A DNA stretch of 39,018 nucleotides from an uncultured Bacteroidales bacterium (GCA_964635605.1 CAZWPU010000002.1:1-39018); one strand, 5' to 3'. Counted from the stretch's first letter, positions 26,277 to 35,433 are shown. Numbers and translations: made by a program. Notes: a model not told the origin generated them from the sequence alone.

Positions 26277-29200
26277 ATGGACAAAAGAGATGCAATAATA
26301 AAATCATTACTAAAAGATTTAAAAAAAGAAAATATCAATACCTGGTTTGATTTGGGTTTGTTTTTAGACAGAATTAAAGAAAGCCGGGACGTTTCAAAAT
26401 TTAAATTTTCTGGAAGTTATTATAAGGAATTTAAAGAATTCATGTGTAATTCAAACATGGCCTTTTTAACTTTTCAATATGCTATTGATGGTGTTAGTAT
26501 TGAAGTAAAAAAATATACCAAAATTTTCAAGGATAAATATAACACATCAAACATTCATTATATAGCTGGTAAATTTTTCCCGGAATCGAAAAAAATGATA
26601 CCGGAATATGTGAAAAAATTTGAATTAGAGTCCATACAAGGTTTTGATGACTGGAAATTGTATAAAGATTTTTTCTTTACACATTTAGAGCGCGGTAGTA
26701 AAGAATATAATGAATTAATCATTAAATTCTGGAAAGAAACATTACAAATTGTTAAGGAACTGGGGAATTATATTGTATATGAAAATATTCAATTGCTCTA
26801 TTTGATTAATGTTTGTTCAAATCCGGGAAATGTTTCTTTAGCCCTGGCCGTTACTTTACTTTCCGAATATTTAAAAATTCCGGTAATAAATAATAGCCAC
26901 GATTTTTTCTGGGAAGGCGGGAACAAAGAAATTAATAAAAAAGTATATCATTTACCCGATGGACCTCGCGATTTCTTTTTTAAAAATGCACATGTAGGCG
27001 AAATTTTTTCTATTATAGAAATGTTGTATCCGTGGGATTCACGAATATGGATGCATGTTAATATCAATAAACAACAATCCGAACGATTGATTAAAATTAA
27101 CGGAATAAATCCTGCAAATGTAACCGAAATTGGAACTGCCGTTGATACGGATGAATATCAAAATACGACGAAGAGAAAAAAAATCAGCACCTTTTATCAA
27201 TTTGAAAAAATTTTAAGTCGTTACCAAGATACATTGATAAGTTATTCAGTTAAAGATGTATTGGAAAGTAATCTGGTTTCTCCCTATTTTATAAGACCTA
27301 TTTTAATAGGAGCCCGAAAAACGAAACCTTTACCTAAATTTCTAAATGAAAATATTATTTTTTTACAGCCTACACGTATCATTGCACGTAAACGAATTGA
27401 AATAGGATTTAATTTAGTTAAGAAACTTTTTGATGAAGAAGATTTTTATAACCGTTTTAAGGAAACAAAAAATCTTAAGCTTACTCTTTTAATTACCGGC
27501 CCAATTGCTTCAGGACACTTTGAATATTTTAAGCAATTACTGAATCGTTTTCAACAATTATTAAAAAATCTGGAACCCAAAATCCGTAATAAAGTATTTT
27601 TAGCTTTTTTGTTTAGCGAGCTGGATAAAAAAACTTTTAAGGAAAAGTTTGATGATCCGGTAGGAATTCCTGAATTGTATAATATTGCTTCGTTAGTTTT
27701 GCTGCCGAGTAAAACTGAAGGCCGTGGATTGCCCATTATTGAAGCAACTGCTTGCGGAACGCCAATTTTTTGCAGCCGCTATTATCCTGAAAATGTATAT
27801 TCCGAAGTAATTGGAGAGCACCTTCCACATCAGGACAGGCTCAAAGTTATTGAGTTTGATGGAAAAAATATCACTAAAAAGCACACTAAAAAAATTATGG
27901 AAAGTGTATTTTTTCCCCATAAATTTACCCATGTTATTGCACATAATCAGCAAGTTGTTAATAAAAGATATAGCTTAAAATCACTTAAAATAAATTTTGA
28001 TGATATTTGTCAAAAATTTTATTATCAGATAGGTACTAAAAATACTGTATTTAATAAAGCAAAAAAAGCCCTTCAATCTTATCAAAAAATTGTTAATTAT
28101 ACTAATGCCGATTTAGAAGCTATATTAGATATTCAAAATCGTGAATATTTACCGGGTTTTGGACGACTGCGATTTATGATTTTATTAAAATCACTCATTG
28201 ATCCCAGCTATTTTAGGGTTGAAGAGCAATTTTTTCGTGGGAAAGCTTATCAATATGCAAGACAAACTTTGGAAAAAGATGAAGGTGAAATTACTACCAA
28301 AAAGAAACTCCAATTTTTTAATGCTGTAGAAAGTATCTTTTTATATCACACAGGAGAAATGGATATTCAACACGACCATTCGTTGCCTTATCGTCATCGT
28401 AATAAAAATAAGTATCCATACCAGGATTTTACTATACAAGAGTTAAGTGGGTTAATAAATATGCTTTATTATGACATTATTCCCATTCAGGAGAAACCGG
28501 AAATTGATGTAAACGCACATTTTTTTACCGATTTTGATTTGGCTTTATCGCAATTAACTTCAAGTACTTATTTAGGTATTGACGACCGCAAATTTTTAAT
28601 AAAAAAATTGCAATCGAATGTTCCTATTGCCTATTTCCCCGGGAAATATATCCAAAATGAGATTGAATTTTTTGCCTTGCAATCTGTTCGCTCAAGGTTA
28701 GAATTAAAAATTGATGAAGAATTAACAGAAGATATATTGAAAGAATGTTCTGAATACATTTCTCCTGTTTATATCATGGCCAGTACAAAAACAACGATTG
28801 AAAATTATAACCGCGATAGTATTGAAAAGTTTATTTTGGAAGGGAATGATGAAGAATTGAAATTACTTTATCAATATAAAATTCTGCAAGTAGTTAATAT
28901 TGATCAGTGGTGTGTAGGAATCCATTTTAATCAGCTGGGAGAGGAAGGATTAAAAGCACTGCGAAGAGTAAAAGAAGAAAAAGGATTTATTATTTCAAAT
29001 CGTACAGAAGCTGCTGTAATGACTGATATTGTTGATATAGACAGGTTTCATATAGGAAAAATTGAAGACCGTATTACCGAGTCAATTATGGGAATACCGA
29101 TGAATACCGGATTTATTCAGTATGTTCCTGCCGGAATGCGGGTTACATTAGCTTATCCCACGCCTGTTCAAACGGCCAAAGATTTTCATGATTATTTAAA

Positions 29201-30452
29201 AAGTGATGAATTTAATAAAGCCATTAAGAAATTTGGAGAAAAGAAAGTTTTTGAAATTTTACATAAAGATGCAAAGGTCAAATTGTCACCTGTTAAAAAA
29301 GTGATAGGCGATTTGTTGGCTTCGAATGAATCAGCAGATGTGGTTTCTTATGAGTTTGTGAGCGGAGTGTATAAGGATAGACGGCCATGGAACGGGGTAA
29401 TAGCCAAAACCCGCTTGGATAAAGCAAAATGGGAATTCATCATTCGATCATCAGAAAAAACTCAACCGGTAACATCATTTATAAATGATTTTGAAAAAGA
29501 GTATAAGCAACCTGTAAAAATTGCATGGAATGGAGGTTATATTCTTAATCCGGAATTGGTTGGAAAATTAGGATTACCTGAATCCTATATTGGTTCACCC
29601 TTGGGTTTGTTAATAGCAGATGGAAAAGTGTTAAGTGCTCCTTTATTTAATAAGCCTGCATTAGTTTTTACCGATAATGGTGTTGATATCTTTCGGGTAA
29701 ATTGTTCAAAAGGTGTCTGTGTTTCACGTGGAACAGTTTCTCTAGAGTTTTCTCAGGCTCAATACAATAACGAATCGGATAAAGAAAATCCCGCTTTTTT
29801 TGATTTGATGTATGATAAAGAAGAAATTGATGCCCATGGAAAAACATTTGTTCGTTTAGCCGGGAATATTATTAAAGATATAGTGGAAACCAAAGAAAAT
29901 CAGAAAGTTAAAATTATTCCTGTAGGGTTAACACTGGCCTTTCTTCAAGATAAATTTCCTGCCGACTGGAAAATTGGAGATGAGGTTGAATTAAAAATTA
30001 AAGGGTTGGAAAATATTATTCATGCGGTTGAGGCTGGCCCTATGTTGATTGATAATGGAAAAATATGTCTGGATATGGAAATAGAAGGATGGAAAACACA
30101 ACATTCGATTAAAACACAAGCAGCCCGATTAGATTATACCGATATGCGCGGGCCTAAAATTGCCGCAGGAATTGATAATAAAAATAATCTTGTTGTTTTA
30201 GCTATTAACGGACGAATACGTGAGTCGGTTGGTGCTACACACCTTAATATGGCTGAAATTTTACAAAAGTTTAATATCATTAAAGGCATGGGTTTCGATC
30301 CCGGAGGAAGCAGCACGTTGGTAGTTAACGGAGAAACATTAAATATTTCTCCCTATAATAGCCGATACGAAGAAAATGTTTTTTCTCTGCCTCCGCAACC
30401 TAGAGCTGTTTCTAACGTTGTAATGGGATATATACAAAACAAAGAAAAATAA
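26277..30452 (+). CDS. 1,391-aa multidomain protein: GT4-like glycosyltransferase + unassigned central region + phosphodiester glycosidase (NAGPA/DUF2233-like) domain
   Basis: One uninterrupted 4,176-nt ORF. Roughly aa 60-560 form a GT-B/GT4-like module, with E-x7-E EGRGLPIIEA at nt 27717-27743. This module is clearly paralogous to the GT at 34147-35433 (DGVSIEVKKY vs DGVALETEKW; IPVINNSHDFFWEGG vs IPTITHDHDFAWERG). Roughly aa 1075-1391 carry AWNGGY (nt 29523-29540), GPMLIDNGK and FDPGGSSTLVVNG (nt 30297-30314), which are hallmarks of the phosphodiester glycosidase family. No signal peptide or TM helix seen. Confidence 0.85.
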   Translation: MDKRDAIIKSLLKDLKKENINTWFDLGLFLDRIKESRDVSKFKFSGSYYKEFKEFMCNSNMAFLTFQYAIDGVSIEVKKYTKIFKDKYNTSNIHYIAGKFFPESKKMIPEYVKKFELESIQGFDDWKLYKDFFFTHLERGSKEYNELIIKFWKETLQIVKELGNYIVYENIQLLYLINVCSNPGNVSLALAVTLLSEYLKIPVINNSHDFFWEGGNKEINKKVYHLPDGPRDFFFKNAHVGEIFSIIEMLYPWDSRIWMHVNINKQQSERLIKINGINPANVTEIGTAVDTDEYQNTTKRKKISTFYQFEKILSRYQDTLISYSVKDVLESNLVSPYFIRPILIGARKTKPLPKFLNENIIFLQPTRIIARKRIEIGFNLVKKLFDEEDFYNRFKETKNLKLTLLITGPIASGHFEYFKQLLNRFQQLLKNLEPKIRNKVFLAFLFSELDKKTFKEKFDDPVGIPELYNIASLVLLPSKTEGRGLPIIEATACGTPIFCSRYYPENVYSEVIGEHLPHQDRLKVIEFDGKNITKKHTKKIMESVFFPHKFTHVIAHNQQVVNKRYSLKSLKINFDDICQKFYYQIGTKNTVFNKAKKALQSYQKIVNYTNADLEAILDIQNREYLPGFGRLRFMILLKSLIDPSYFRVEEQFFRGKAYQYARQTLEKDEGEITTKKKLQFFNAVESIFLYHTGEMDIQHDHSLPYRHRNKNKYPYQDFTIQELSGLINMLYYDIIPIQEKPEIDVNAHFFTDFDLALSQLTSSTYLGIDDRKFLIKKLQSNVPIAYFPGKYIQNEIEFFALQSVRSRLELKIDEELTEDILKECSEYISPVYIMASTKTTIENYNRDSIEKFILEGNDEELKLLYQYKILQVVNIDQWCVGIHFNQLGEEGLKALRRVKEEKGFIISNRTEAAVMTDIVDIDRFHIGKIEDRITESIMGIPMNTGFIQYVPAGMRVTLAYPTPVQTAKDFHDYLKSDEFNKAIKKFGEKKVFEILHKDAKVKLSPVKKVIGDLLASNESADVVSYEFVSGVYKDRRPWNGVIAKTRLDKAKWEFIIRSSEKTQPVTSFINDFEKEYKQPVKIAWNGGYILNPELVGKLGLPESYIGSPLGLLIADGKVLSAPLFNKPALVFTDNGVDIFRVNCSKGVCVSRGTVSLEFSQAQYNNESDKENPAFFDLMYDKEEIDAHGKTFVRLAGNIIKDIVETKENQKVKIIPVGLTLAFLQDKFPADWKIGDEVELKIKGLENIIHAVEAGPMLIDNGKICLDMEIEGWKTQHSIKTQAARLDYTDMRGPKIAAGIDNKNNLVVLAINGRIRESVGATHLNMAEILQKFNIIKGMGFDPGGSSTLVVNGETLNISPYNSRYEENVFSLPPQPRAVSNVVMGYIQNKEK

Positions 30453-30456
30453 ACAA

Positions 30457-31584
30457 TTGGCAGGTATTTATTTACATATTCCGTTTTGTAAAAGAAAATG
30501 TGCATATTGCGATTTTTTTTCGCTGGCTAATGCAAAACATCAAGACGATTTTGTACAAGCCATTCTTCAGGAGGTTTCGTTGCAGCAACATTACCTGGAT
30601 AATGAACGTGTGCAAACCATTTATTTTGGAGGAGGTACACCTTCATTGCTTTCTATTGGACAGTTGGAAGAAATACTAAATGCTTTGCATAAAAATTTTA
30701 GAATTGATAAAAATATCGATCTAACCCTCGAAGGTAATCCTGAAAATTTAACTCAAACTTTTTTAAGAGATTTAAAATCCCTTGGATTTAATCGGTTAAG
30801 TATTGGAATACAGTCGTTCAACGATGATGATTTAATGTTGATGCGTAGAACACATAATGCAAAAACAGCTGTTAAATCTATTTATAATGCAAAAAATCAA
30901 GGATTTAAGAATATTTCTGTTGATTTAATTTACGGATTACCCAATTTTACACGTGAAAAATGGGAAAAAAATTTAGAGCAAACCTTTCTGTTAGATGTGC
31001 AACATATTTCTGCCTATCATTTAACCATTGAACCCAAAACTCTTTTTAAAAAGTGGTATGATGAAAATAAAATTCATTTACCAAACGAAGAGAAAAGTTT
31101 AGAACAATATCAGCTTTTGGTCGAAAAAACTGCTGCCAACGGATTTTTACATTATGAAATTTCCAATTTTGCCAAAGATGGATTTCTTTCGTTACATAAC
31201 ACCAATTATTGGGTGGGTGTAAAGTACTTAGGATTAGGCCCTTCTGCGCATTCGTATAATTTAACTTCACGACAATGGAATATTTCAAATCTGCACGTAT
31301 ATTTGGCCGAAATATCAAAAGGAAATATACCATTCGAAAGGGAAAATTTGTCGTTACAGGAAAAATATAACGATTTTATTATAACATCTTTTCGAACCAT
31401 GTGGGGATTAAATTTGGAAAAATTTGTTTTAAATTTTGGGTCATCGTATAAAAAATATTTTTTAAAAAAAATTGAAAAATATTTGGATCAAGAATTTTGT
31501 ATACAAAATCATGATCAAATAAAATTATCCGAACAAGGAATGTTTATTTCTGATCATATTATGACTGATTTATTTTTTGAATAA
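30457..31584 (+). CDS. hemW: Radical SAM heme chaperone HemW (HemN-like, oxygen-independent coproporphyrinogen oxidase family)
   Basis: 375 aa. CxxxCxxC motif FCKRKCAYCDFF, GGGTPS, and a HemN_C-like tail. The apparent TTG start lies 4 nt after the upstream stop. Confidence 0.85.
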   Translation: MAGIYLHIPFCKRKCAYCDFFSLANAKHQDDFVQAILQEVSLQQHYLDNERVQTIYFGGGTPSLLSIGQLEEILNALHKNFRIDKNIDLTLEGNPENLTQTFLRDLKSLGFNRLSIGIQSFNDDDLMLMRRTHNAKTAVKSIYNAKNQGFKNISVDLIYGLPNFTREKWEKNLEQTFLLDVQHISAYHLTIEPKTLFKKWYDENKIHLPNEEKSLEQYQLLVEKTAANGFLHYEISNFAKDGFLSLHNTNYWVGVKYLGLGPSAHSYNLTSRQWNISNLHVYLAEISKGNIPFERENLSLQEKYNDFIITSFRTMWGLNLEKFVLNFGSSYKKYFLKKIEKYLDQEFCIQNHDQIKLSEQGMFISDHIMTDLFFE

Positions 31585-31595
31585 AAATATTTTTT

Positions 31596-33758
31596 ATGAT
31601 ATCAACAGGAAAATTGTTTGAAGACCAGGAACCTTTTCGTTTATTATTTGAATTATCGAATGATCCAATTTTAATATTCAAAGATTTTCAGTTTGTAGAT
31701 TGCAATAAGGCAACTTTAACATTATTAGGTTTTTCGTCTAAGAAAGAGTTTGAAACAGCAATAGATGAAGTATTGGCTCCTGAATATCAGCTCGATGGAG
31801 AGAAATCATCCGTTAAAGTGAAAACGATGATGAATAAAGCTTACCAAAAAGGCAATCATCGATTCGAATGGGTACATTTAAATAAAAAGAAAGAAGTGAT
31901 ATATGTTGATGTAACATTAACCCAAATATCTTATCTGGAGCAAAATTATCTTTTTGCTATTTGGCGGGATATGTCCAAACAAAAGAAATATGAAAAAAAT
32001 CTGGAAGAAAGCGAAAAATTGTATAGTACCTTATTTGAACAGGCAGCTGATGGTATTTTGGTTGGGATTAATAAGGGTGAAATTATTGACGCCAATAAAA
32101 GTGCTTGTAAATTAATAGGTTATAATAAAGATGAATTGATAGGAAAAAATATAAAACATTTATTCAGCCCGAAAGAATTAGCAATAAATCCATTGAGGTA
32201 TGATTTAATTAAGAACGGAGATACAATAATAAAGGAGCGTGAAATTGTATGCAAAGACGGGAAAGTTGTTCCTGTAGAAATGAATACGAAGATTTTAGAA
32301 GACGGACGTATGCAGACTTTATTTCGAGACATTTCGGTTCGGAAAATGGCTGAAAAAGCTCTTATTGAAAGTGAAGAGAAATACCGCAATGTATTTAAAT
32401 ATGCTCCGCTTGGGATTTTTCATTACGACCAAAACGGAGTTATTACTGATTGTAATCAGAACTTTATAGATATTATTGGTTCTTCGAAAGAGCAGTTGAT
32501 AGGACTGAATATGCTCAAAGATTTAAATAATCTTGAAATAACTAAAAAAATTGAGCTTTCCTTAAAAACAGGAGAAGGAGTATATGAAAACTGGTACACT
32601 TCGGTAACCGGAAAAAAAACGACCTTTGTAAAAGGCTTATTTAAATGTATATTCGATGAAAATAGAAACTTTATTTCCGGTATTGGGCTCATTGAAGATA
32701 TTACTCAACGTAAAAAAGCAGAGATAGCCCTAATTGAGAGTGAGCAAAAATACCGAATGCTTTTTGAAAATGCCAGCGATTCTATAATGATTATGAACGA
32801 AGATATTTTTGTTGATTGTAATGAAAAAACGTTGGAATTATTTGGATGCTCAAAAAAAGAACTAATAGGGCAGTCTCCTTATAAATTCAGCCCTAAAAAA
32901 CAGCCAGATGGGAGAAGTTCAAAAGAAAAGGCTAGAGAAAAAATAAAGGAAGCAATACAAGGAAAGTCGAAAATTTTTGAATGGGTACACCAAAAAGCTG
33001 ATGGAACAAATTTTTATACCGAAGTAAGTTTAAATGTTTTTGATTTACAAAATAAAAATACGGTACAAGCTATTGTCCGCGATATCTCTGATAGAAAAGA
33101 ATTTGAACAACGAATTTACGAAACAATTATTGAAACAGAAGAACGCGAAAGGCAGCGTTTAGCAAGCGATATACACGACGAAATAGGGCCATTATTATCC
33201 AGTTTGAAAGTGTATATTGAGTCATTAAATCCGAAAGGAGACGCCACAAAACAACAATACATTAAAAGCAAACTTCAGGAATTGATTAAAGAAACGATTG
33301 ATAATGTCCGAGAAGTTTCTAATGCAATCAGCCCATACTTACTAAATAAATATGGAATGGAAGCAGCTATTGAATCTTTTATTAAACAAACAGAAAATAT
33401 TCTTACCATTCATTTTAAATCCAACCTAAAGGATAAAAGGTTTCCGCTCAAAACAGAAATTGTTTTTTTTAGGATTATTAAAGAGCTGATAAATAATACG
33501 CTAAAACATGCCCGGGCTAAAAATATTGGCGTACATTTGCAATATAACAAAGGTGAATTGCTTTTGTGTTATACCGATGATGGAATTGGTTTAGATAAGA
33601 AATATTTATCTTCAGGTAAAACAGAAGGGATGGGATTATTTAATATCATTAACCGGGTTAACTCAATACAAGGAGATTATAAATTTTACGAAATGTCAGA
33701 CGGTTTTAAATTTACATTAACCAAAAAGACACCTTTACTGGAAAGCATAAAAAAATAA
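31596..33758 (+). CDS. Cytoplasmic sensor histidine kinase, 4 x PAS + HisKA_3 + HATPase_c
   Basis: 720 aa with no TM segment. Four PAS-like modules begin at about FRLLFELSNDPILIF, YSTLFEQAADGILVG, YRNVFKYAPLGIFHYD and YRMLFENASDSIMIMN. HisKA_3 H-box ERQRLASDIHDEIGPLL; ATPase N and G boxes (ELINNTLKHA, DDGIGL, GMGLFNI). Confidence 0.9.
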   Translation: MISTGKLFEDQEPFRLLFELSNDPILIFKDFQFVDCNKATLTLLGFSSKKEFETAIDEVLAPEYQLDGEKSSVKVKTMMNKAYQKGNHRFEWVHLNKKKEVIYVDVTLTQISYLEQNYLFAIWRDMSKQKKYEKNLEESEKLYSTLFEQAADGILVGINKGEIIDANKSACKLIGYNKDELIGKNIKHLFSPKELAINPLRYDLIKNGDTIIKEREIVCKDGKVVPVEMNTKILEDGRMQTLFRDISVRKMAEKALIESEEKYRNVFKYAPLGIFHYDQNGVITDCNQNFIDIIGSSKEQLIGLNMLKDLNNLEITKKIELSLKTGEGVYENWYTSVTGKKTTFVKGLFKCIFDENRNFISGIGLIEDITQRKKAEIALIESEQKYRMLFENASDSIMIMNEDIFVDCNEKTLELFGCSKKELIGQSPYKFSPKKQPDGRSSKEKAREKIKEAIQGKSKIFEWVHQKADGTNFYTEVSLNVFDLQNKNTVQAIVRDISDRKEFEQRIYETIIETEERERQRLASDIHDEIGPLLSSLKVYIESLNPKGDATKQQYIKSKLQELIKETIDNVREVSNAISPYLLNKYGMEAAIESFIKQTENILTIHFKSNLKDKRFPLKTEIVFFRIIKELINNTLKHARAKNIGVHLQYNKGELLLCYTDDGIGLDKKYLSSGKTEGMGLFNIINRVNSIQGDYKFYEMSDGFKFTLTKKTPLLESIKK

Positions 33759-33773
33759 TATATTATATTTATT

Positions 33774-34136
33774 ATGACCGTACTCATTGTAGATGATAAT
33801 AAACAATTTTTAGAAGCATTTAAATTTTTTCTACAGGAAAATTTTTCGGATAGAATAGAAGAAATTTTTGAAGTATCGAATGGGCAAGAATGTCTCGATA
33901 TTTTAAAAAGAAATGCAATAGATATTGTTTTTATGGATTTTGAAATGCCTGTAATGAATGGGGTTGAAGCAACCAAAATAATAGTTGATTTATACCGTAA
34001 CTTAAAAGTAGTAGCAGTATCCTTTCATTCTGAGCTTGAAGATATGGAAAAAATGTTAGAAGCAGGAGCCCGTAATTATATTATAAAAGAAGAAATTAGC
34101 CCCGAAGCCGTAGAAAAATGTTTTACAAACATGTAA
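33774..34136 (+). CDS. Stand-alone receiver (REC-only, CheY-like) response regulator
   Basis: 120 aa. Acidic pocket VDDN, phospho-acceptor in FMDFEMPVMNG, conserved S (VAVSF) and K (YIIKE). No output domain. Confidence 0.9.
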   Translation: MTVLIVDDNKQFLEAFKFFLQENFSDRIEEIFEVSNGQECLDILKRNAIDIVFMDFEMPVMNGVEATKIIVDLYRNLKVVAVSFHSELEDMEKMLEAGARNYIIKEEISPEAVEKCFTNM

Positions 34137-34146
34137 AATCAGACGT

Positions 34147-35433
34147 TTATTTTTTTGTTGCCAACGTAATTAATTTTGATAATTTTTCTTCAAGCGTATC
34201 GTAAGAAAAATATTTTTCCCCTAACTGAAAATTATATTCCCCAATTTCTTTATTTAATTGATCATTGTATATTATTTCCTGCATTTTCTTTAGTGCTTTA
34301 TCTGTAATTTGATTATCTTCAAGCATAACCGTTTTAAATCCCTTACTTCCAATATCTGGCCAATATACTGGTTTATAGTTATTAACAAATATTGATTTTT
34401 TGGCTAATACCGCTTCGACAAAAGCATTACCAAAACCCTCATAGGTGCTAAAATAAGTACAAGCCCGAGCGTGTGCATAGGCATCCGATAAGGAATAGCT
34501 TTTATCATTTACCGAGCCAGCAAACCCTTTCGTAGAAAAGCTGTGATAAGCAAAATGTACTTGTTTACTAATTTTAAGTTGATGAATTAAATCTACCAGT
34601 TCCATATAATATTCACTTCCGGCATCATCGGCATAATTGCCGGTAATAATAAGTTTGATTTTTGGATTATTTAATAAATCAATGAGTTTAATTGCCGTTT
34701 CGATACCTTTACGGCGAACAATTCGGGTAATCTGAAATAATAAAATATCATCATCATCAAGGCCTAAATCTTTGCGTAGATCTTTGTTGTTCGCCGTTAT
34801 TTGGCCAAAAGGTTTATCAAAATCCATCACATTAGGAACCACAATGGATTCTCGATTGTATTTTTCTTTTAATGTTTTTTGAGCATGTAGGTTAATTACT
34901 GCATGAAAACTATTTGGTAATTGTAAAGGGAAAGTATCTTTTACAATTTGATTAATTTTTTTGTGCGGAGAAACATATCTGTTGCCTCTTTCCCAGGCAA
35001 AATCATGGTCGTGCGTTATGGTTGGTATCTGTAATTTTTCTACGGCTTTTTTTATGGCTAATCCCATTGAAATGTGGGATGGCAATGCTGATGCATTTTC
35101 TGATATCAATAATTGAATATTATGTGTTTTTACCCAGTCAATAATTTTACGTTCAATAACATTAGCATATAAAAGCAAATGCTCAAGTAACTCATCTTCA
35201 TCGTAATCGGGGTTAAAATAGGCTTTTTTTTGTTCCCAATAACTTTCGGGCGAAAAAAAAGACATTTCCTGAACACGGGTTTCATGTTGACAATCAATTT
35301 TTCTTCCTTCAAACTGACCGGAAATAATAAAAATTTCATGGCCCATACGTTGCAATACTTCAATCCATTTTTCGGTTTCCAAAGCAACACCGTCAACACC
35401 TCCAATACGGCCTATTATGATTCCTATTTTCAT
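34147..35433 (-). CDS. GT4-family (GT-B) glycosyltransferase, paralogue of the N-terminal module of the 1,391-aa protein
   Basis: 428 aa. Gly-rich N-terminus GRIGGVDGVALE, HDHDFAWERG, FQITRIVRRKGIE and E-x7-E EGFGNAFVEA. Confidence 0.85.
   Translation of the reverse strand: MKIGIIIGRIGGVDGVALETEKWIEVLQRMGHEIFIISGQFEGRKIDCQHETRVQEMSFFSPESYWEQKKAYFNPDYDEDELLEHLLLYANVIERKIIDWVKTHNIQLLISENASALPSHISMGLAIKKAVEKLQIPTITHDHDFAWERGNRYVSPHKKINQIVKDTFPLQLPNSFHAVINLHAQKTLKEKYNRESIVVPNVMDFDKPFGQITANNKDLRKDLGLDDDDILLFQITRIVRRKGIETAIKLIDLLNNPKIKLIITGNYADDAGSEYYMELVDLIHQLKISKQVHFAYHSFSTKGFAGSVNDKSYSLSDAYAHARACTYFSTYEGFGNAFVEAVLAKKSIFVNNYKPVYWPDIGSKGFKTVMLEDNQITDKALKKMQEIIYNDQLNKEIGEYNFQLGEKYFSYDTLEEKLSKLITLATKK

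What the first reader, a model, noticed from the sequence alone, without database searches (positions are those of the whole stretch)
26277..30452. Leaderless 1,391-aa fusion of a GT4-like glycosyltransferase with a phosphodiester-glycosidase ('uncovering enzyme'-like) domain
Seen in sequence: one continuous ORF carries two modules. The first is a GT-B/GT4-type module with an E-x7-E signature (EGRGLPIIEA). The second is a C-terminal module with NGGY, GPMLIDNGK and DPGGSST motifs, which I recognise as the NAGPA/DUF2233 phosphodiester glycosidase family. Established knowledge: the founding member of that family removes a GlcNAc cap from a GlcNAc-1-P-6-Man phosphodiester. Bacterial members are essentially uncharacterised, and to my knowledge they are usually stand-alone and exported. 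Here the domain has no signal peptide or TM helix and is welded to a sugar-adding enzyme. Inference: this could be a channelled add-then-uncover pathway, analogous to synthase-phosphatase fusions in compatible-solute synthesis. Alternatively it could synthesise and trim a sugar-phosphate polymer in the cytoplasm. I know of no described system with this logic.
Basis: partly seen in the sequence, partly recalled or inferred. Interest (0 to 1): 0.8.

Follow-up and report, generated by a model that had tools for sequence, protein, structure and literature searches.

The report
Conserved cytoplasmic three-domain sugar-phosphate enzyme

Summary
It is not an assembly artefact. More than 120 protein clusters and 397 species genomes encode colinear full-length relatives, including cultured Marinifilum and Ancylomarina.

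The protein has three modules, not two:
- aa ~1-585: a complete GT-B/GT4 glycosyltransferase. Its closest named family is mannosylglucosylglycerate synthase (MggS), far below equivalog score.
- aa ~589-1015: a DUF89/ARMT1 'damage-control phosphatase' fold. This rests on Foldseek, plus a Pfam PF01937 hit above threshold in a distant family member. The catalytic Asp nucleophile is Gly here and in nearly all members examined.
- aa ~1020-1391: a NAGPA-type phosphodiester glycosidase fold. It keeps the catalytic Asp, two Gly, the Ser and the phosphate-binding Arg. The motif reads DPGGS instead of DGGGS, and a GlcNAc-contacting Glu is not conserved.

There is no signal peptide or TM helix. A stand-alone MggS-like GT4 paralogue and hemW are conserved neighbours. 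Distant members are named from Deltaproteobacteria, Myxococcota and Oligoflexia.

I found no published characterisation. The function remains inferred: probably a cytoplasmic enzyme that builds and/or trims a small non-GlcNAc sugar-phosphate conjugate. It is an interesting, uncharacterised new combination of known modules.

The parts
26277..30452 (+). Single 1391-aa ORF (about 161 kDa, pI about 8.6). No signal peptide or TM helix.
   Evidence: Full-length colinear homologues.
26277..28031 (+). Module 1 (aa ~1-585): a complete GT-B fold, GT4-like glycosyltransferase of the MggS-like subgroup. It has a short N-terminal helical extension.
   Evidence: AF2 model, pLDDT 83. Foldseek top hits are retaining GT4 enzymes (BshA, HepE, MshA, GlgM, SPS) at E about 1e-13. 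Pfam PF00534. Best NCBIfam hit is NF041101 MggS, 53.7 bits. Invariant residues: G72, H208-D209, R367, K372, E481, E489.
27717..27743 (+). E-x7-E motif (E481...E489) of the GT4 C-terminal Rossmann domain.
   Evidence: Invariant in 36 of 36 aligned homologues. Kept in distant members except P0194 and P0202.
28044..29321 (+). Module 2 (aa ~589-1015): a DUF89/ARMT1-like fold (helical bundle plus Rossmann-like alpha/beta). The catalytic Asp nucleophile is replaced by Gly (G789 in 'FPGKY'). The domain carries many other invariant polar residues: D700-H701-S702, Y705, R706, R708, D769, D917, H925, R955, Q965.
   Evidence: Foldseek: 2g8l (PH1575, DUF89) E 2.5e-6, TMt 0.61; 1xfi (At2g17340) E 4e-6. Pfam PF01937 hit above the gathering score in distant family member P0186 (E 1.6e-9), with weaker hits in P0171 and P0189. 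No HMMER hit for the window's own domain. Motif alignment.
29334..30449 (+). Module 3 (aa ~1020-1391): a NAGPA/DUF2233-type phosphodiester glycosidase fold.
   Evidence: Pfam PF09992. phmmer and profile hits to Slr0280 (5h3k, 1e-15) and vertebrate NAGPA (6u11, 6pku, 6pki). Foldseek: 5h3k 6.8e-20, 6ozd, 6pkg, 3ohg.
30297..30311 (+). D1341-P-G-G-S1345, the counterpart of the NAGPA 'DGGGS' catalytic and phosphate-binding loop. The first Gly is replaced by Pro.
   Evidence: Aligned with DGGGS of Slr0280 and vertebrate NAGPA. All five residues are invariant in the 36-sequence alignment. The role of DGGGS is taken from PMC13474241.
30457..31584 (+). hemW (radical-SAM heme chaperone family). It starts 4 nt after the stop codon of the large ORF, so it is probably co-transcribed.
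   Evidence: TIGR00539, 298.9 bits. Found in 44 of 50 related loci that have at least 5 kb downstream; in most it starts within about 5-50 nt of the large gene.
34147..35433 (-). Stand-alone 428-aa MggS-like GT4, a paralogue of module 1. It is convergent and a conserved neighbour.
   Evidence: NF041101 over its full length, 224.7 bits (cut-off 640). BLASTP against module 1: E 3e-11 and 7e-10, with a shared HDFxWExGN motif. Present in 42 of 50 loci, 63-96% identical.
31596..34136 (+). PAS histidine kinase plus receiver. In the window's own clade these sit between hemW and the MggS-like GT4. This is context, not a core part.
   Evidence: Found in 18 of the 80 loci. In most other loci hemW is followed directly by the GT4.

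Best explanation
The gene encodes a soluble cytoplasmic enzyme of three modules that acts on a sugar-phosphate conjugate.

Shown:
1. The N-terminal module is a complete GT4-type GT-B glycosyltransferase. It has every residue class needed for NDP-sugar use, and it belongs to the same subgroup as the small-molecule enzyme MggS and the neighbouring stand-alone paralogue.
2. The C-terminal module has the phosphodiester-glycosidase fold. It keeps the catalytic Asp, the glycine loop and the phosphate-binding Arg. It has changed two positions that recognise the N-acetyl group in NAGPA.
3. The middle module descends from DUF89 metal-dependent phosphatases but lacks their Asp nucleophile.

Inferred:
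- The GT module transfers a hexose from an NDP-sugar to a small soluble acceptor.
- The C-terminal module cleaves the anomeric C-O bond of a non-GlcNAc sugar-1-phosphodiester. This releases a sugar and exposes a phosphomonoester.
- The middle module no longer hydrolyses phosphate by the canonical route. It may bind the phosphate-bearing moiety and hold the two catalytic domains in a fixed geometry.

Together with the paralogous GT4 next door, the protein would build and/or trim a cytoplasmic glycoside or sugar-phosphodiester metabolite of the compatible-solute or storage type. The substrate is unknown.
For: Architecture and competence of the catalytic modules:
- Pfam hits.
- AF2 models: pLDDT 83 and 82, pTM 0.80 for each.
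- Foldseek: GT4 enzymes that act on small acceptors (BshA, MshA, GlgM, SPS) for module 1; NAGPA family and DUF89 for the rest.
- Invariant G72, H208/D209, R367/K372 and E481/E489 in the GT module. Invariant T1280, D1341-P-G-G-S1345 and R1376 in module 3. These align to human T227, D286-S290 and R316 (residue roles from PMC13474241).

DUF89 ancestry: PF01937 scores 37.8 bits, above the gathering cut-off of 25, in family member P0186.

Loss of the nucleophile.

Link to small-molecule chemistry: the best NCBIfam hit is MggS, and a paralogous MggS-like GT4 is a conserved neighbour.

Cytoplasmic location.

Strong purifying selection over the whole length: 66% mean column identity, with invariant polar residues in all three modules. 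The family reaches other phyla at 26-32% identity with the same order of modules.
Against: - No substrate, product or phenotype is known.
- Synteny with the MggS-like GT4 and hemW is confined to related Bacteroidota. It could reflect conserved housekeeping gene order rather than shared function.
- Distant members have different neighbours.
- The G-to-P change in the DGGGS loop could inactivate the glycosidase. G287A in human NAGPA disrupts ER exit (PMC13474241).
- A few distant members have lost the NAGPA Asp (P0186, P0189) or the GT motifs (P0194, P0202). The three activities are therefore not obligatorily coupled.
- The role of the middle domain is inferred from conserved residues alone.
Confidence: 0.35

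Rival explanations
1. The GT module adds a sugar, and the NAGPA-like module then removes a capping GlcNAc from a GlcNAc-1-P diester on the same intermediate. This would be analogous to synthase-phosphatase fusions.
For: Both modules look catalytically competent and sit in one chain. The domain order is conserved across phyla.
Against: The positions that contact the N-acetyl group in NAGPA are changed: the G287 backbone amide corresponds to Pro, and E226 corresponds to a variable position (PMC13474241). GT4 enzymes make glycosidic bonds, not sugar-1-phosphodiesters, so the GT module cannot create the bond that the NAGPA module cleaves. No Stealth or GlcNAc-1-P-transferase-type gene is among the annotated neighbours.
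Confidence: 0.12
2. A GT4 enzyme whose two C-terminal modules are non-catalytic. The degenerate DUF89 and NAGPA-like folds would serve as sugar-phosphate sensing, allosteric or oligomerisation domains that regulate the transferase.
For: The DUF89 nucleophile is lost in nearly all members examined. The DGGGS loop reads DPGGS. Some members have lost the NAGPA Asp (P0186, P0189). A complete 955-aa relative lacks the NAGPA module altogether.
Against: D1341, G1343, G1344, S1345, T1280 and R1376 are invariant in the 36-sequence alignment and kept in most distant GT-bearing members examined. That pattern is typical of a working active site. Members without GT motifs (P0194, P0202) keep a canonical DGGGS or DGGSS loop, which suggests the C-terminal module has activity of its own.
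Confidence: 0.2
3. Synthesis, repair or recycling of a lipid- or polymer-linked sugar phosphate at the cytoplasmic face of the membrane. Examples are release of sugar from polyprenyl-phosphate-sugar to recycle the carrier, or trimming of a sugar-phosphate polymer or phosphorylated storage glucan.
For: Sugar-1-P-polyprenol and sugar-1-P repeat polymers are natural sugar-1-phosphodiesters (established knowledge). Many GT4 enzymes act on lipid-linked or polymer acceptors. Foldseek also hits WaaG, PimB', PglA and glycogen synthase. One distant member lies directly after PHA synthase genes, another next to an MscS channel.
Against: There is no TM or amphipathic anchor. No capsule, O-antigen or teichoic-type genes are adjacent; the neighbourhood is housekeeping. 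The closest named GT family acts on a small solute.
Confidence: 0.15
4. An assembly or frameshift artefact that joins separate genes.
For: None found.
Against: Colinear full-length orthologues of 1378-1419 aa occur in more than 100 independent assemblies, including isolate genomes (Marinifilum fragile JCM 15579, Ancylomarina longa) and Mb-scale contigs. The middle region is as conserved as the ends.
Confidence: 0.01

Closest known systems
NAGPA / 'uncovering enzyme' and bacterial DUF2233 proteins (Pfam PF09992; PDB 6pku, 6u11, 3ohg, 5h3k, 6ozd)
   Same: Same fold, with a Pfam hit above threshold. The catalytic Asp, two of the three loop glycines, the Ser, a Thr that contacts the sugar, and the phosphate-binding Arg are all conserved.
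   Different: The protein is cytoplasmic and fused, not exported or stand-alone. The loop reads DPGGS instead of the 'strictly invariant' DGGGS. The counterpart of E226 is variable, so GlcNAc specificity is unlikely. No EGF stalk, propeptide or disulfides.
Mannosylglucosylglycerate synthase MggS (NCBIfam NF041101; Petrotoga and Thermotoga) and GT4 enzymes acting on small acceptors (BshA, MshA, GlgM, SPS)
   Same: GT-B fold, E-x7-E motif, R/K diphosphate-binding pair, and an HDFxWE motif shared with the MggS-like neighbour.
   Different: It scores only 53.7 bits against the 640-bit equivalog cut-off. The module is about 150 aa longer than MggS and is fused to two further modules. Donor and acceptor are unknown.
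DUF89 / ARMT1 'damage-control' metal-dependent phosphatases (Pfam PF01937; PDB 2g8l, 1xfi; S. pombe Duf89, PMC9062747)
   Same: Overall two-subdomain fold (Foldseek E 2.5e-6, TMt 0.61). There is sequence-level homology through distant family members: P0186 has a PF01937 hit at E 1.6e-9.
   Different: The Asp nucleophile and the metal-binding triad are absent. The nucleophile position is G789 and the second Asp position is not conserved. The window's own domain gives no HMMER hit. A different set of invariant residues has evolved.
Synthase-phosphatase fusion enzymes of compatible-solute synthesis (SPS with an SPP-like domain, TPSP, bifunctional MPGS/MPGP)
   Same: A glycosyltransferase fused to a phosphatase-fold domain in a cytoplasmic protein. 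This comparison rests on established knowledge and on PMC3634074, listed.
   Different: The phosphatase fold here is DUF89-type, not HAD, and lacks its nucleophile. A third, glycosidase-type module has no counterpart in those fusions.

Membership tests
GT4-type GT-B glycosyltransferase (Pfam Glycos_transf_1) | Pfam PF00534 score at or above the gathering cut-off | tested here: met
   37.0 bits against 26.4, aa 457-504.
GT4-type GT-B glycosyltransferase (Pfam Glycos_transf_1) | Two-Rossmann GT-B fold | tested here: met
   AF2 model, pLDDT 83. Foldseek E about 1e-13 to BshA, HepE, MshA, GlgM and SPS, TMt up to 0.71.
GT4-type GT-B glycosyltransferase (Pfam Glycos_transf_1) | E-x7-E motif and basic residues for the NDP diphosphate | tested here: met
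   E481, E489, R367 and K372 are invariant in 36 sequences and kept in distant members. The assignment of roles is by analogy.
GT4-type GT-B glycosyltransferase (Pfam Glycos_transf_1) | Retaining glycosyl transfer from an NDP-sugar | not testable with these tools
   Needs an enzyme assay.
Mannosylglucosylglycerate synthase (NCBIfam NF041101 equivalog) | Score at or above the 640-bit equivalog cut-off over the full length | tested here: not met
   53.7 bits, aa 357-571 only. The neighbouring 428-aa GT reaches 224.7 bits over its full length, also below the cut-off.
NAGPA / phosphodiester glycosidase (Pfam PF09992) | Pfam score at or above the gathering cut-off, and the family fold | tested here: met
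   53.8 bits against 25. Foldseek: 5h3k 6.8e-20, vertebrate NAGPA about 1e-11, 3ohg 2.4e-9.
NAGPA / phosphodiester glycosidase (Pfam PF09992) | Catalytic Asp (human D286) and phosphate-binding Arg (human R316) | tested here: met
   D1341 and R1376 are invariant. The D of DPGGS aligns to the D of NAGPA's DGGGS. The 'PR' of P1375-R1376 aligns to the 'CPR' of guinea pig and Xenopus NAGPA. Equating that Arg with human R316 is my inference from the C307-C314 disulfide given in PMC13474241.
NAGPA / phosphodiester glycosidase (Pfam PF09992) | Strictly invariant DGGGS loop | tested here: not met
   The loop is D-P-G-G-S. Pro replaces the Gly whose backbone amide contacts GlcNAc (PMC13474241). Four of five positions are kept.
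NAGPA / phosphodiester glycosidase (Pfam PF09992) | GlcNAc recognition by E226 and T227 | tested here: inconclusive
   In one search the family's 'KTQ' aligns to 'ETQ'/'KTQ' of guinea pig and Xenopus NAGPA. I equate these with human E226-T227, which is an inference. The Thr (T1280) is invariant. The preceding residue (K1279) varies across the family: K, R, I, Q, S, A.
NAGPA / phosphodiester glycosidase (Pfam PF09992) | Hydrolysis of the C1-O bond of a sugar-1-phosphodiester | not testable with these tools
   Needs an enzyme assay.
DUF89 / ARMT1-like phosphatase (Pfam PF01937) | Pfam score at or above the gathering cut-off | tested here: not met
   No PF01937 hit for the window protein or for 26 close relatives, even at E up to 10. 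The criterion is met only by distant family member P0186 (37.8 bits against 25).
DUF89 / ARMT1-like phosphatase (Pfam PF01937) | DUF89 fold (helical subdomain plus Rossmann-like subdomain) | tested here: met
   Foldseek: 2g8l E 2.5e-6, prob 1.00, TMt 0.61-0.62; 1xfi E 4.1e-6. Nothing else outside the NAGPA family scores better than E 0.03.
DUF89 / ARMT1-like phosphatase (Pfam PF01937) | Asp nucleophile, Asn and second Asp forming the metal triad (S. pombe D252, N253, D290) | tested here: not met
   In the MAFFT alignment, the P0186 'FCDGAGE' Asp aligns with G789 ('FPGKY'). The 'ENDIT' Asp aligns with an unconserved position. Residue roles are from PMC9062747. Identifying the P0186 motifs with the DUF89 motifs rests on the Pfam hit coordinates and on my recollection of the DUF89 motif pattern.
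Synthase-phosphatase fusion enzymes (SPS/SPP-like, TPSP) | A glycosyltransferase fused to a catalytically competent phosphatase that acts on its product | tested here: not met
   The phosphatase-fold module lacks its nucleophile. Its fold family is DUF89, not HAD.

The most novel reading that the evidence does not exclude
The family is the core of an undescribed cytoplasmic pathway for a sugar-phosphodiester metabolite. A GT4 module, a phosphate-binding pseudo-phosphatase and a non-GlcNAc 'uncovering' glycosidase would cooperate on one bound intermediate. This would be the first physiological role for a bacterial NAGPA-type domain, and the first intracellular one. It is conserved from Bacteroidota to lineages named as Myxococcota, Oligoflexia and Deltaproteobacteria.
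Probability: 0.2. Interest if true: 0.8.

Novelty: new variant of a known kind. Interest (0 to 1): 0.55.

Why it matters
Bacterial members of the uncovering-enzyme family have solved structures but, as far as I could find, no established physiological substrate. The examples I could check are described as exported or stand-alone.

Here is a large, strongly conserved family of about 400 species-level genomes, with members named from at least three other lineages. In it the NAGPA-type domain is intracellular. It is permanently coupled to a glycosyltransferase and to a phosphatase-derived domain that has lost its nucleophile. The active site appears retuned away from GlcNAc.

Cultured hosts exist (Marinifilum, Ancylomarina), so the substrate question could be addressed experimentally. 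Solving it could reveal a new sugar-phosphate metabolite, such as an osmolyte, storage compound or carrier-recycling intermediate, in abundant marine and sediment Bacteroidales. It could also show what the ancestral chemistry of the uncovering-enzyme fold is.

Tried and rejected
1. Mis-assembly or frameshift: rejected.
2. Direct sequence evidence that the window's middle domain is DUF89: no hit from HMMER profile against PDB sequences or from Pfam scans of 26 members at E up to 10. phmmer of the P0186 middle region against PDB also found nothing. The link rests on Foldseek and on Pfam hits in distant members.
3. The weak hits to ADP-dependent glucokinase, DAGK_acc and YonK were treated as noise.
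4. Anti-phage defence role, prompted by a sub-threshold GT4-conflict hit: there is no PADLOC hit for the large protein or the neighbouring GT, and the locus is vertically inherited housekeeping synteny.
5. Search for a canonical DUF89 gene in the roughly 90 fetched loci, to build a comparison profile: none found.
6. Search for a conserved operon partner in distant clades: none. The only recurring item is a small zinc-ribbon protein downstream in two loci.
7. Promoter and terminator scan: no more sites than in shuffled sequence, so uninformative.
8. Rfam and tRNA scans of the window: nothing.
9. Literature searches for the architecture, for bacterial phosphodiester glycosidases and for Slr0280: no functional study found. 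Das et al. 2013 (PMC3675612) is not held.
10. I could not inspect model coordinates. Pocket geometry and inter-domain contacts were therefore not examined.

Full report
**Observation.** The window carries a single uninterrupted ORF at 26277-30452 on the + strand, with an ATG start and 1391 codons. Pfam confirms a phosphodiester-glycosidase domain (PF09992, aa 1231-1365, 53.8 bits against a cut-off of 25). It also confirms the C-terminal half of a GT4-type glycosyltransferase (PF00534, aa 457-504, 37 bits against 26.4). There is no N-terminal leader and no transmembrane segment. The only hydrophobic 19-mer (aa 186-204) lies in a modelled helix of the glycosyltransferase N-terminal half.

**Not an artefact.** A search of 5.8 billion proteins returned 777 relatives. 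The best 120 clusters are all 1378-1419 aa (plus one partial), 54-92% identical over 99-100% of the query, and all carry both Pfam domains. A scan of one genome per GTDB species found 397 encoding stretches. The 80 shown are colinear over essentially the full length. They come from Bacteroidales, Marinilabiliales, Marinifilaceae, Rikenellaceae and Salinivirgaceae. They include the isolate genomes Marinifilum fragile JCM 15579, Marinifilum sp. RC60d5 and Ancylomarina longa. Mean column identity across 36 members is 66%, and invariant residues are spread along the whole chain.

**Three modules, not two.**

*Module 1 (aa ~1-585).* An AlphaFold2 model of aa 1-620 (pLDDT 83, pTM 0.80) is a complete GT-B fold. 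Its best PDB matches are retaining GT4 enzymes, most of which glycosylate small soluble acceptors: BshA, MshA, GlgM, sucrose-phosphate synthase, and also HepE. These score E about 1e-13.

*Modules 2 and 3 (aa 575-1391).* A second model (pLDDT 82, pTM 0.80) matches two unrelated structure families:
- The NAGPA family: Slr0280 (5h3k) 6.8e-20, BPSS2145 (6ozd), vertebrate NAGPA about 1e-11, and BACOVA_00430 (3ohg).
- The DUF89 family: PH1575 (2g8l) E 2.5e-6, TMt 0.61, and At2g17340 (1xfi) 4e-6.

Nothing else scores better than E 0.03.

**Sequence-level support for DUF89 ancestry.** HMMER finds no DUF89 signal in the window's own middle domain or in 26 close relatives. An exhaustive search of 1.84 billion representatives extended the family to full-length proteins of 1380-1560 aa at only 26-32% identity. 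One of these, P0186, has a PF01937 hit above the gathering score in the equivalent region (E 1.6e-9, 37.8 bits against 25). Two others, P0171 and P0189, have weaker hits. The middle module is therefore a diverged DUF89 homologue, not a chance fold match.

**State of the three active sites.**

*GT module.* G72, H208-D209, R367, K372, E481 and E489 are invariant in 36 sequences. They persist in nearly all distant members. This is consistent with a working NDP-sugar transferase.

*NAGPA-like module.* Profile alignments to vertebrate NAGPA, combined with the residue roles in PMC13474241, give these equivalences:

| Window residue | Human NAGPA | Role in NAGPA | Status here |
|---|---|---|---|
| D1341 | D286 | catalytic | invariant |
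| G1343-G1344-S1345 | G288-G289-S290 | phosphate loop | invariant |
| T1280 | T227 | sugar contact | invariant |
| R1376 | R316 | phosphate | invariant |
| P1342 | G287 | backbone amide contacts GlcNAc | invariant Pro |
| K1279 | E226 | GlcNAc contact | variable |

The machinery for binding a sugar-1-phosphate and cleaving it looks intact. Two features that contact the GlcNAc (at least one of them its N-acetyl group) are not kept. I infer a different sugar specificity; inactivation cannot be excluded. The equivalences to human T227, E226 and R316 are inferred from alignments to guinea pig and Xenopus sequences.

*DUF89-like module.* The DUF89 mechanism uses an Asp nucleophile next to an Asn, plus a second Asp, to bind the metal (S. 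pombe D252, N253, D290; PMC9062747). P0186 has recognisable 'FCDGAGE' and 'ENDIT' motifs inside its Pfam hit. In a MAFFT alignment of 24 family members, the first Asp aligns with G789 of the window protein ('FPGKY') and with Gly in all the other GT-bearing members aligned. The second Asp aligns with an unconserved position. The canonical phosphatase mechanism is therefore absent. The domain nevertheless carries many invariant polar residues: a low-confidence loop D700-H-S-x-x-Y-R-H-R708, then D769, D917, H925 (Arg in distant members), R955 and Q965. So it is under selection for something. Phosphate-ligand binding and scaffolding is my inference, not a result.

**Context.** The window is AT-rich (about 30% GC) Bacteroidota chromosome with housekeeping genes. 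Across the 80 related loci the ancestral order is: nadA(-), rpiB, an Rrf2 regulator, vanZ(-), the large gene, hemW, then a convergent 428-aa GT4.
- hemW starts 4 nt after the large ORF's stop. It is present in 44 of 50 loci that have at least 5 kb downstream, and in most it starts within about 5-50 nt of the large gene.
- The 428-aa GT4 is present in 42 of 50 loci and is 63-96% identical, so it is better conserved than the large gene itself.
- That GT4 matches the mannosylglucosylglycerate-synthase model NF041101 over its full length (224.7 bits, below the 640-bit equivalog cut-off).
- The large protein's GT module also has NF041101 as its best NCBIfam hit (53.7 bits against about 22 for the next).
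- The large protein's GT module aligns directly with the neighbour, including a shared HDFxWExGN motif (BLASTP E 3e-11 and 7e-10).

The locus therefore holds two paralogous MggS-like transferases. In the window's own clade a PAS histidine kinase and a receiver sit between hemW and the GT4.

This synteny is confined to related Bacteroidota and sits in a housekeeping block, so it is suggestive but not proof of shared function. Distant members are named as Deltaproteobacteria, Myxococcota, Oligoflexia and unclassified 'bacterium'. They have unrelated neighbours: PHA synthase genes, guaA, lgt and an MscS channel. PADLOC gives no defence-system hit for the large protein or its GT4 neighbour.

**Family variation.**
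- Two deep-branching 1560-aa members (P0194, P0202) lack the GT motifs but keep a canonical DGGGS or DGGSS loop.
- P0186 and P0189 have lost the NAGPA Asp.
- P0186 is the only aligned member with Asp at the DUF89 nucleophile position.
- A complete 955-aa relative (P0231) has the N-terminal and middle parts but no NAGPA module.

The middle-plus-C-terminal pair is the most persistent unit, and the three modules are not absolutely interdependent.

**Most likely function.** The shown facts are the fold, homology and residue conservation of three modules in one soluble protein. From these I infer a cytoplasmic enzyme that works on a sugar-phosphate conjugate:
- The GT4 module transfers a hexose from an NDP-sugar to a small acceptor. 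Its nearest relatives, by both sequence and structure, do this.
- The NAGPA-like module cleaves the anomeric bond of a non-GlcNAc sugar-1-phosphodiester.
- The former phosphatase domain binds the phosphate-bearing part and fixes the geometry.

My confidence in this mechanism is about 0.35. My confidence in the architecture is above 0.9.

GT4 chemistry cannot create the phosphodiester that NAGPA chemistry cleaves. The GlcNAc-recognition features are altered.

Other rivals are a regulatory role for two dead C-terminal domains (about 0.2) and a role on lipid- or polymer-linked sugar phosphates (about 0.15).

**Comparison with known systems.** The protein works like, and descends from, three known families. 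It passes the membership tests for the GT4 fold and motifs, and for the NAGPA fold and catalytic Asp/Arg. It fails the MggS equivalog threshold, the strict DGGGS motif and the DUF89 catalytic triad (see the membership table). It resembles synthase-phosphatase fusions of compatible-solute synthesis in logic. However, it uses a different phosphatase fold that lacks its nucleophile, and it adds a module those fusions lack.

Full-text searches found no characterisation of this architecture or of any bacterial phosphodiester glycosidase's physiological substrate. Databases label the family only as 'phosphodiester glycosidase family protein' or 'glycosyltransferase'.

**Verdict.** This is a real, conserved and uncharacterised protein family. 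It is a new combination and variant of known modules, not a categorically new entity. Its interest is moderate to high for glycobiology, because it offers a tractable entry to the unknown bacterial role of the uncovering-enzyme fold. The mechanism remains inferred.

Noticed in passing
window 34147-35433 (-): A stand-alone 428-aa MggS-like GT4 (NF041101, 224.7 bits over its full length). It is more conserved across related genomes (63-96% identity) than the large gene itself. It has more than 3,300 homologue clusters, some named 'mannosylglucosylglycerate synthase' by JGI. Its own substrate is unknown.
   Followed up: partly
window 31596-34136 (+): A PAS-rich HisKA_3 histidine kinase and a single-domain receiver lie between hemW and the MggS-like GT4, but only in the window's clade (18 of the 80 loci). 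Other loci have hemW directly followed by the GT4. In three loci (L023, L032, L067) a similar pair lies on the opposite strand.
   Followed up: partly
P0186 (L084:4849-9150) compared with the window protein: There is a reciprocal pattern of active-site decay. P0186 is the only aligned family member that has Asp at the DUF89 nucleophile position ('FCDGAGE'), and it has lost the NAGPA catalytic Asp ('FQSGES'). The window clade shows the opposite pattern. This rests on a single sequence, so it may be coincidence.
   Followed up: no
L081:7856-8380 and L085:7144-7623: In two distant members (one named Deltaproteobacteria) the large gene is followed by a small protein of about 160-175 aa with no recorded Pfam hit. 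The two are 42% identical, and both carry CPxCG-type Cys pairs (zinc-ribbon-like). In L081 the large gene also lies directly after phasin, maoC, phaE and phaC.
   Followed up: partly
L005 (JBKHIH010000040.1, 'Thiohalospira sp.' MAG); L002 and L004 (both from JAWLEM01, bin 20BLK6-1.bin.63): L005 is a contig labelled Gammaproteobacteria. It carries an 85%-identical copy with the same upstream gene order (nadA, rpiB, Rrf2, vanZ) as the Bacteroidota loci, so a binning error is likely. One Bacteroidales MAG holds two syntenic copies (88% and 82% identity), which probably means two strains were binned together.
   Followed up: no
L089:823-1938 (P0181): A 371-aa stand-alone relative of the C-terminal module (34% identity). 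It has no obvious signal peptide, and its loop is degenerate ('NPDGQ'). It lies 10 nt upstream of a GH97 glycoside hydrolase.
   Followed up: no
window 30457-31584 (+): hemW starts with TTG, 4 nt after the stop of the large ORF. It gave a weak PADLOC hit (PDC-M51A, E 9e-9), which is most likely generic radical-SAM similarity.
   Followed up: no
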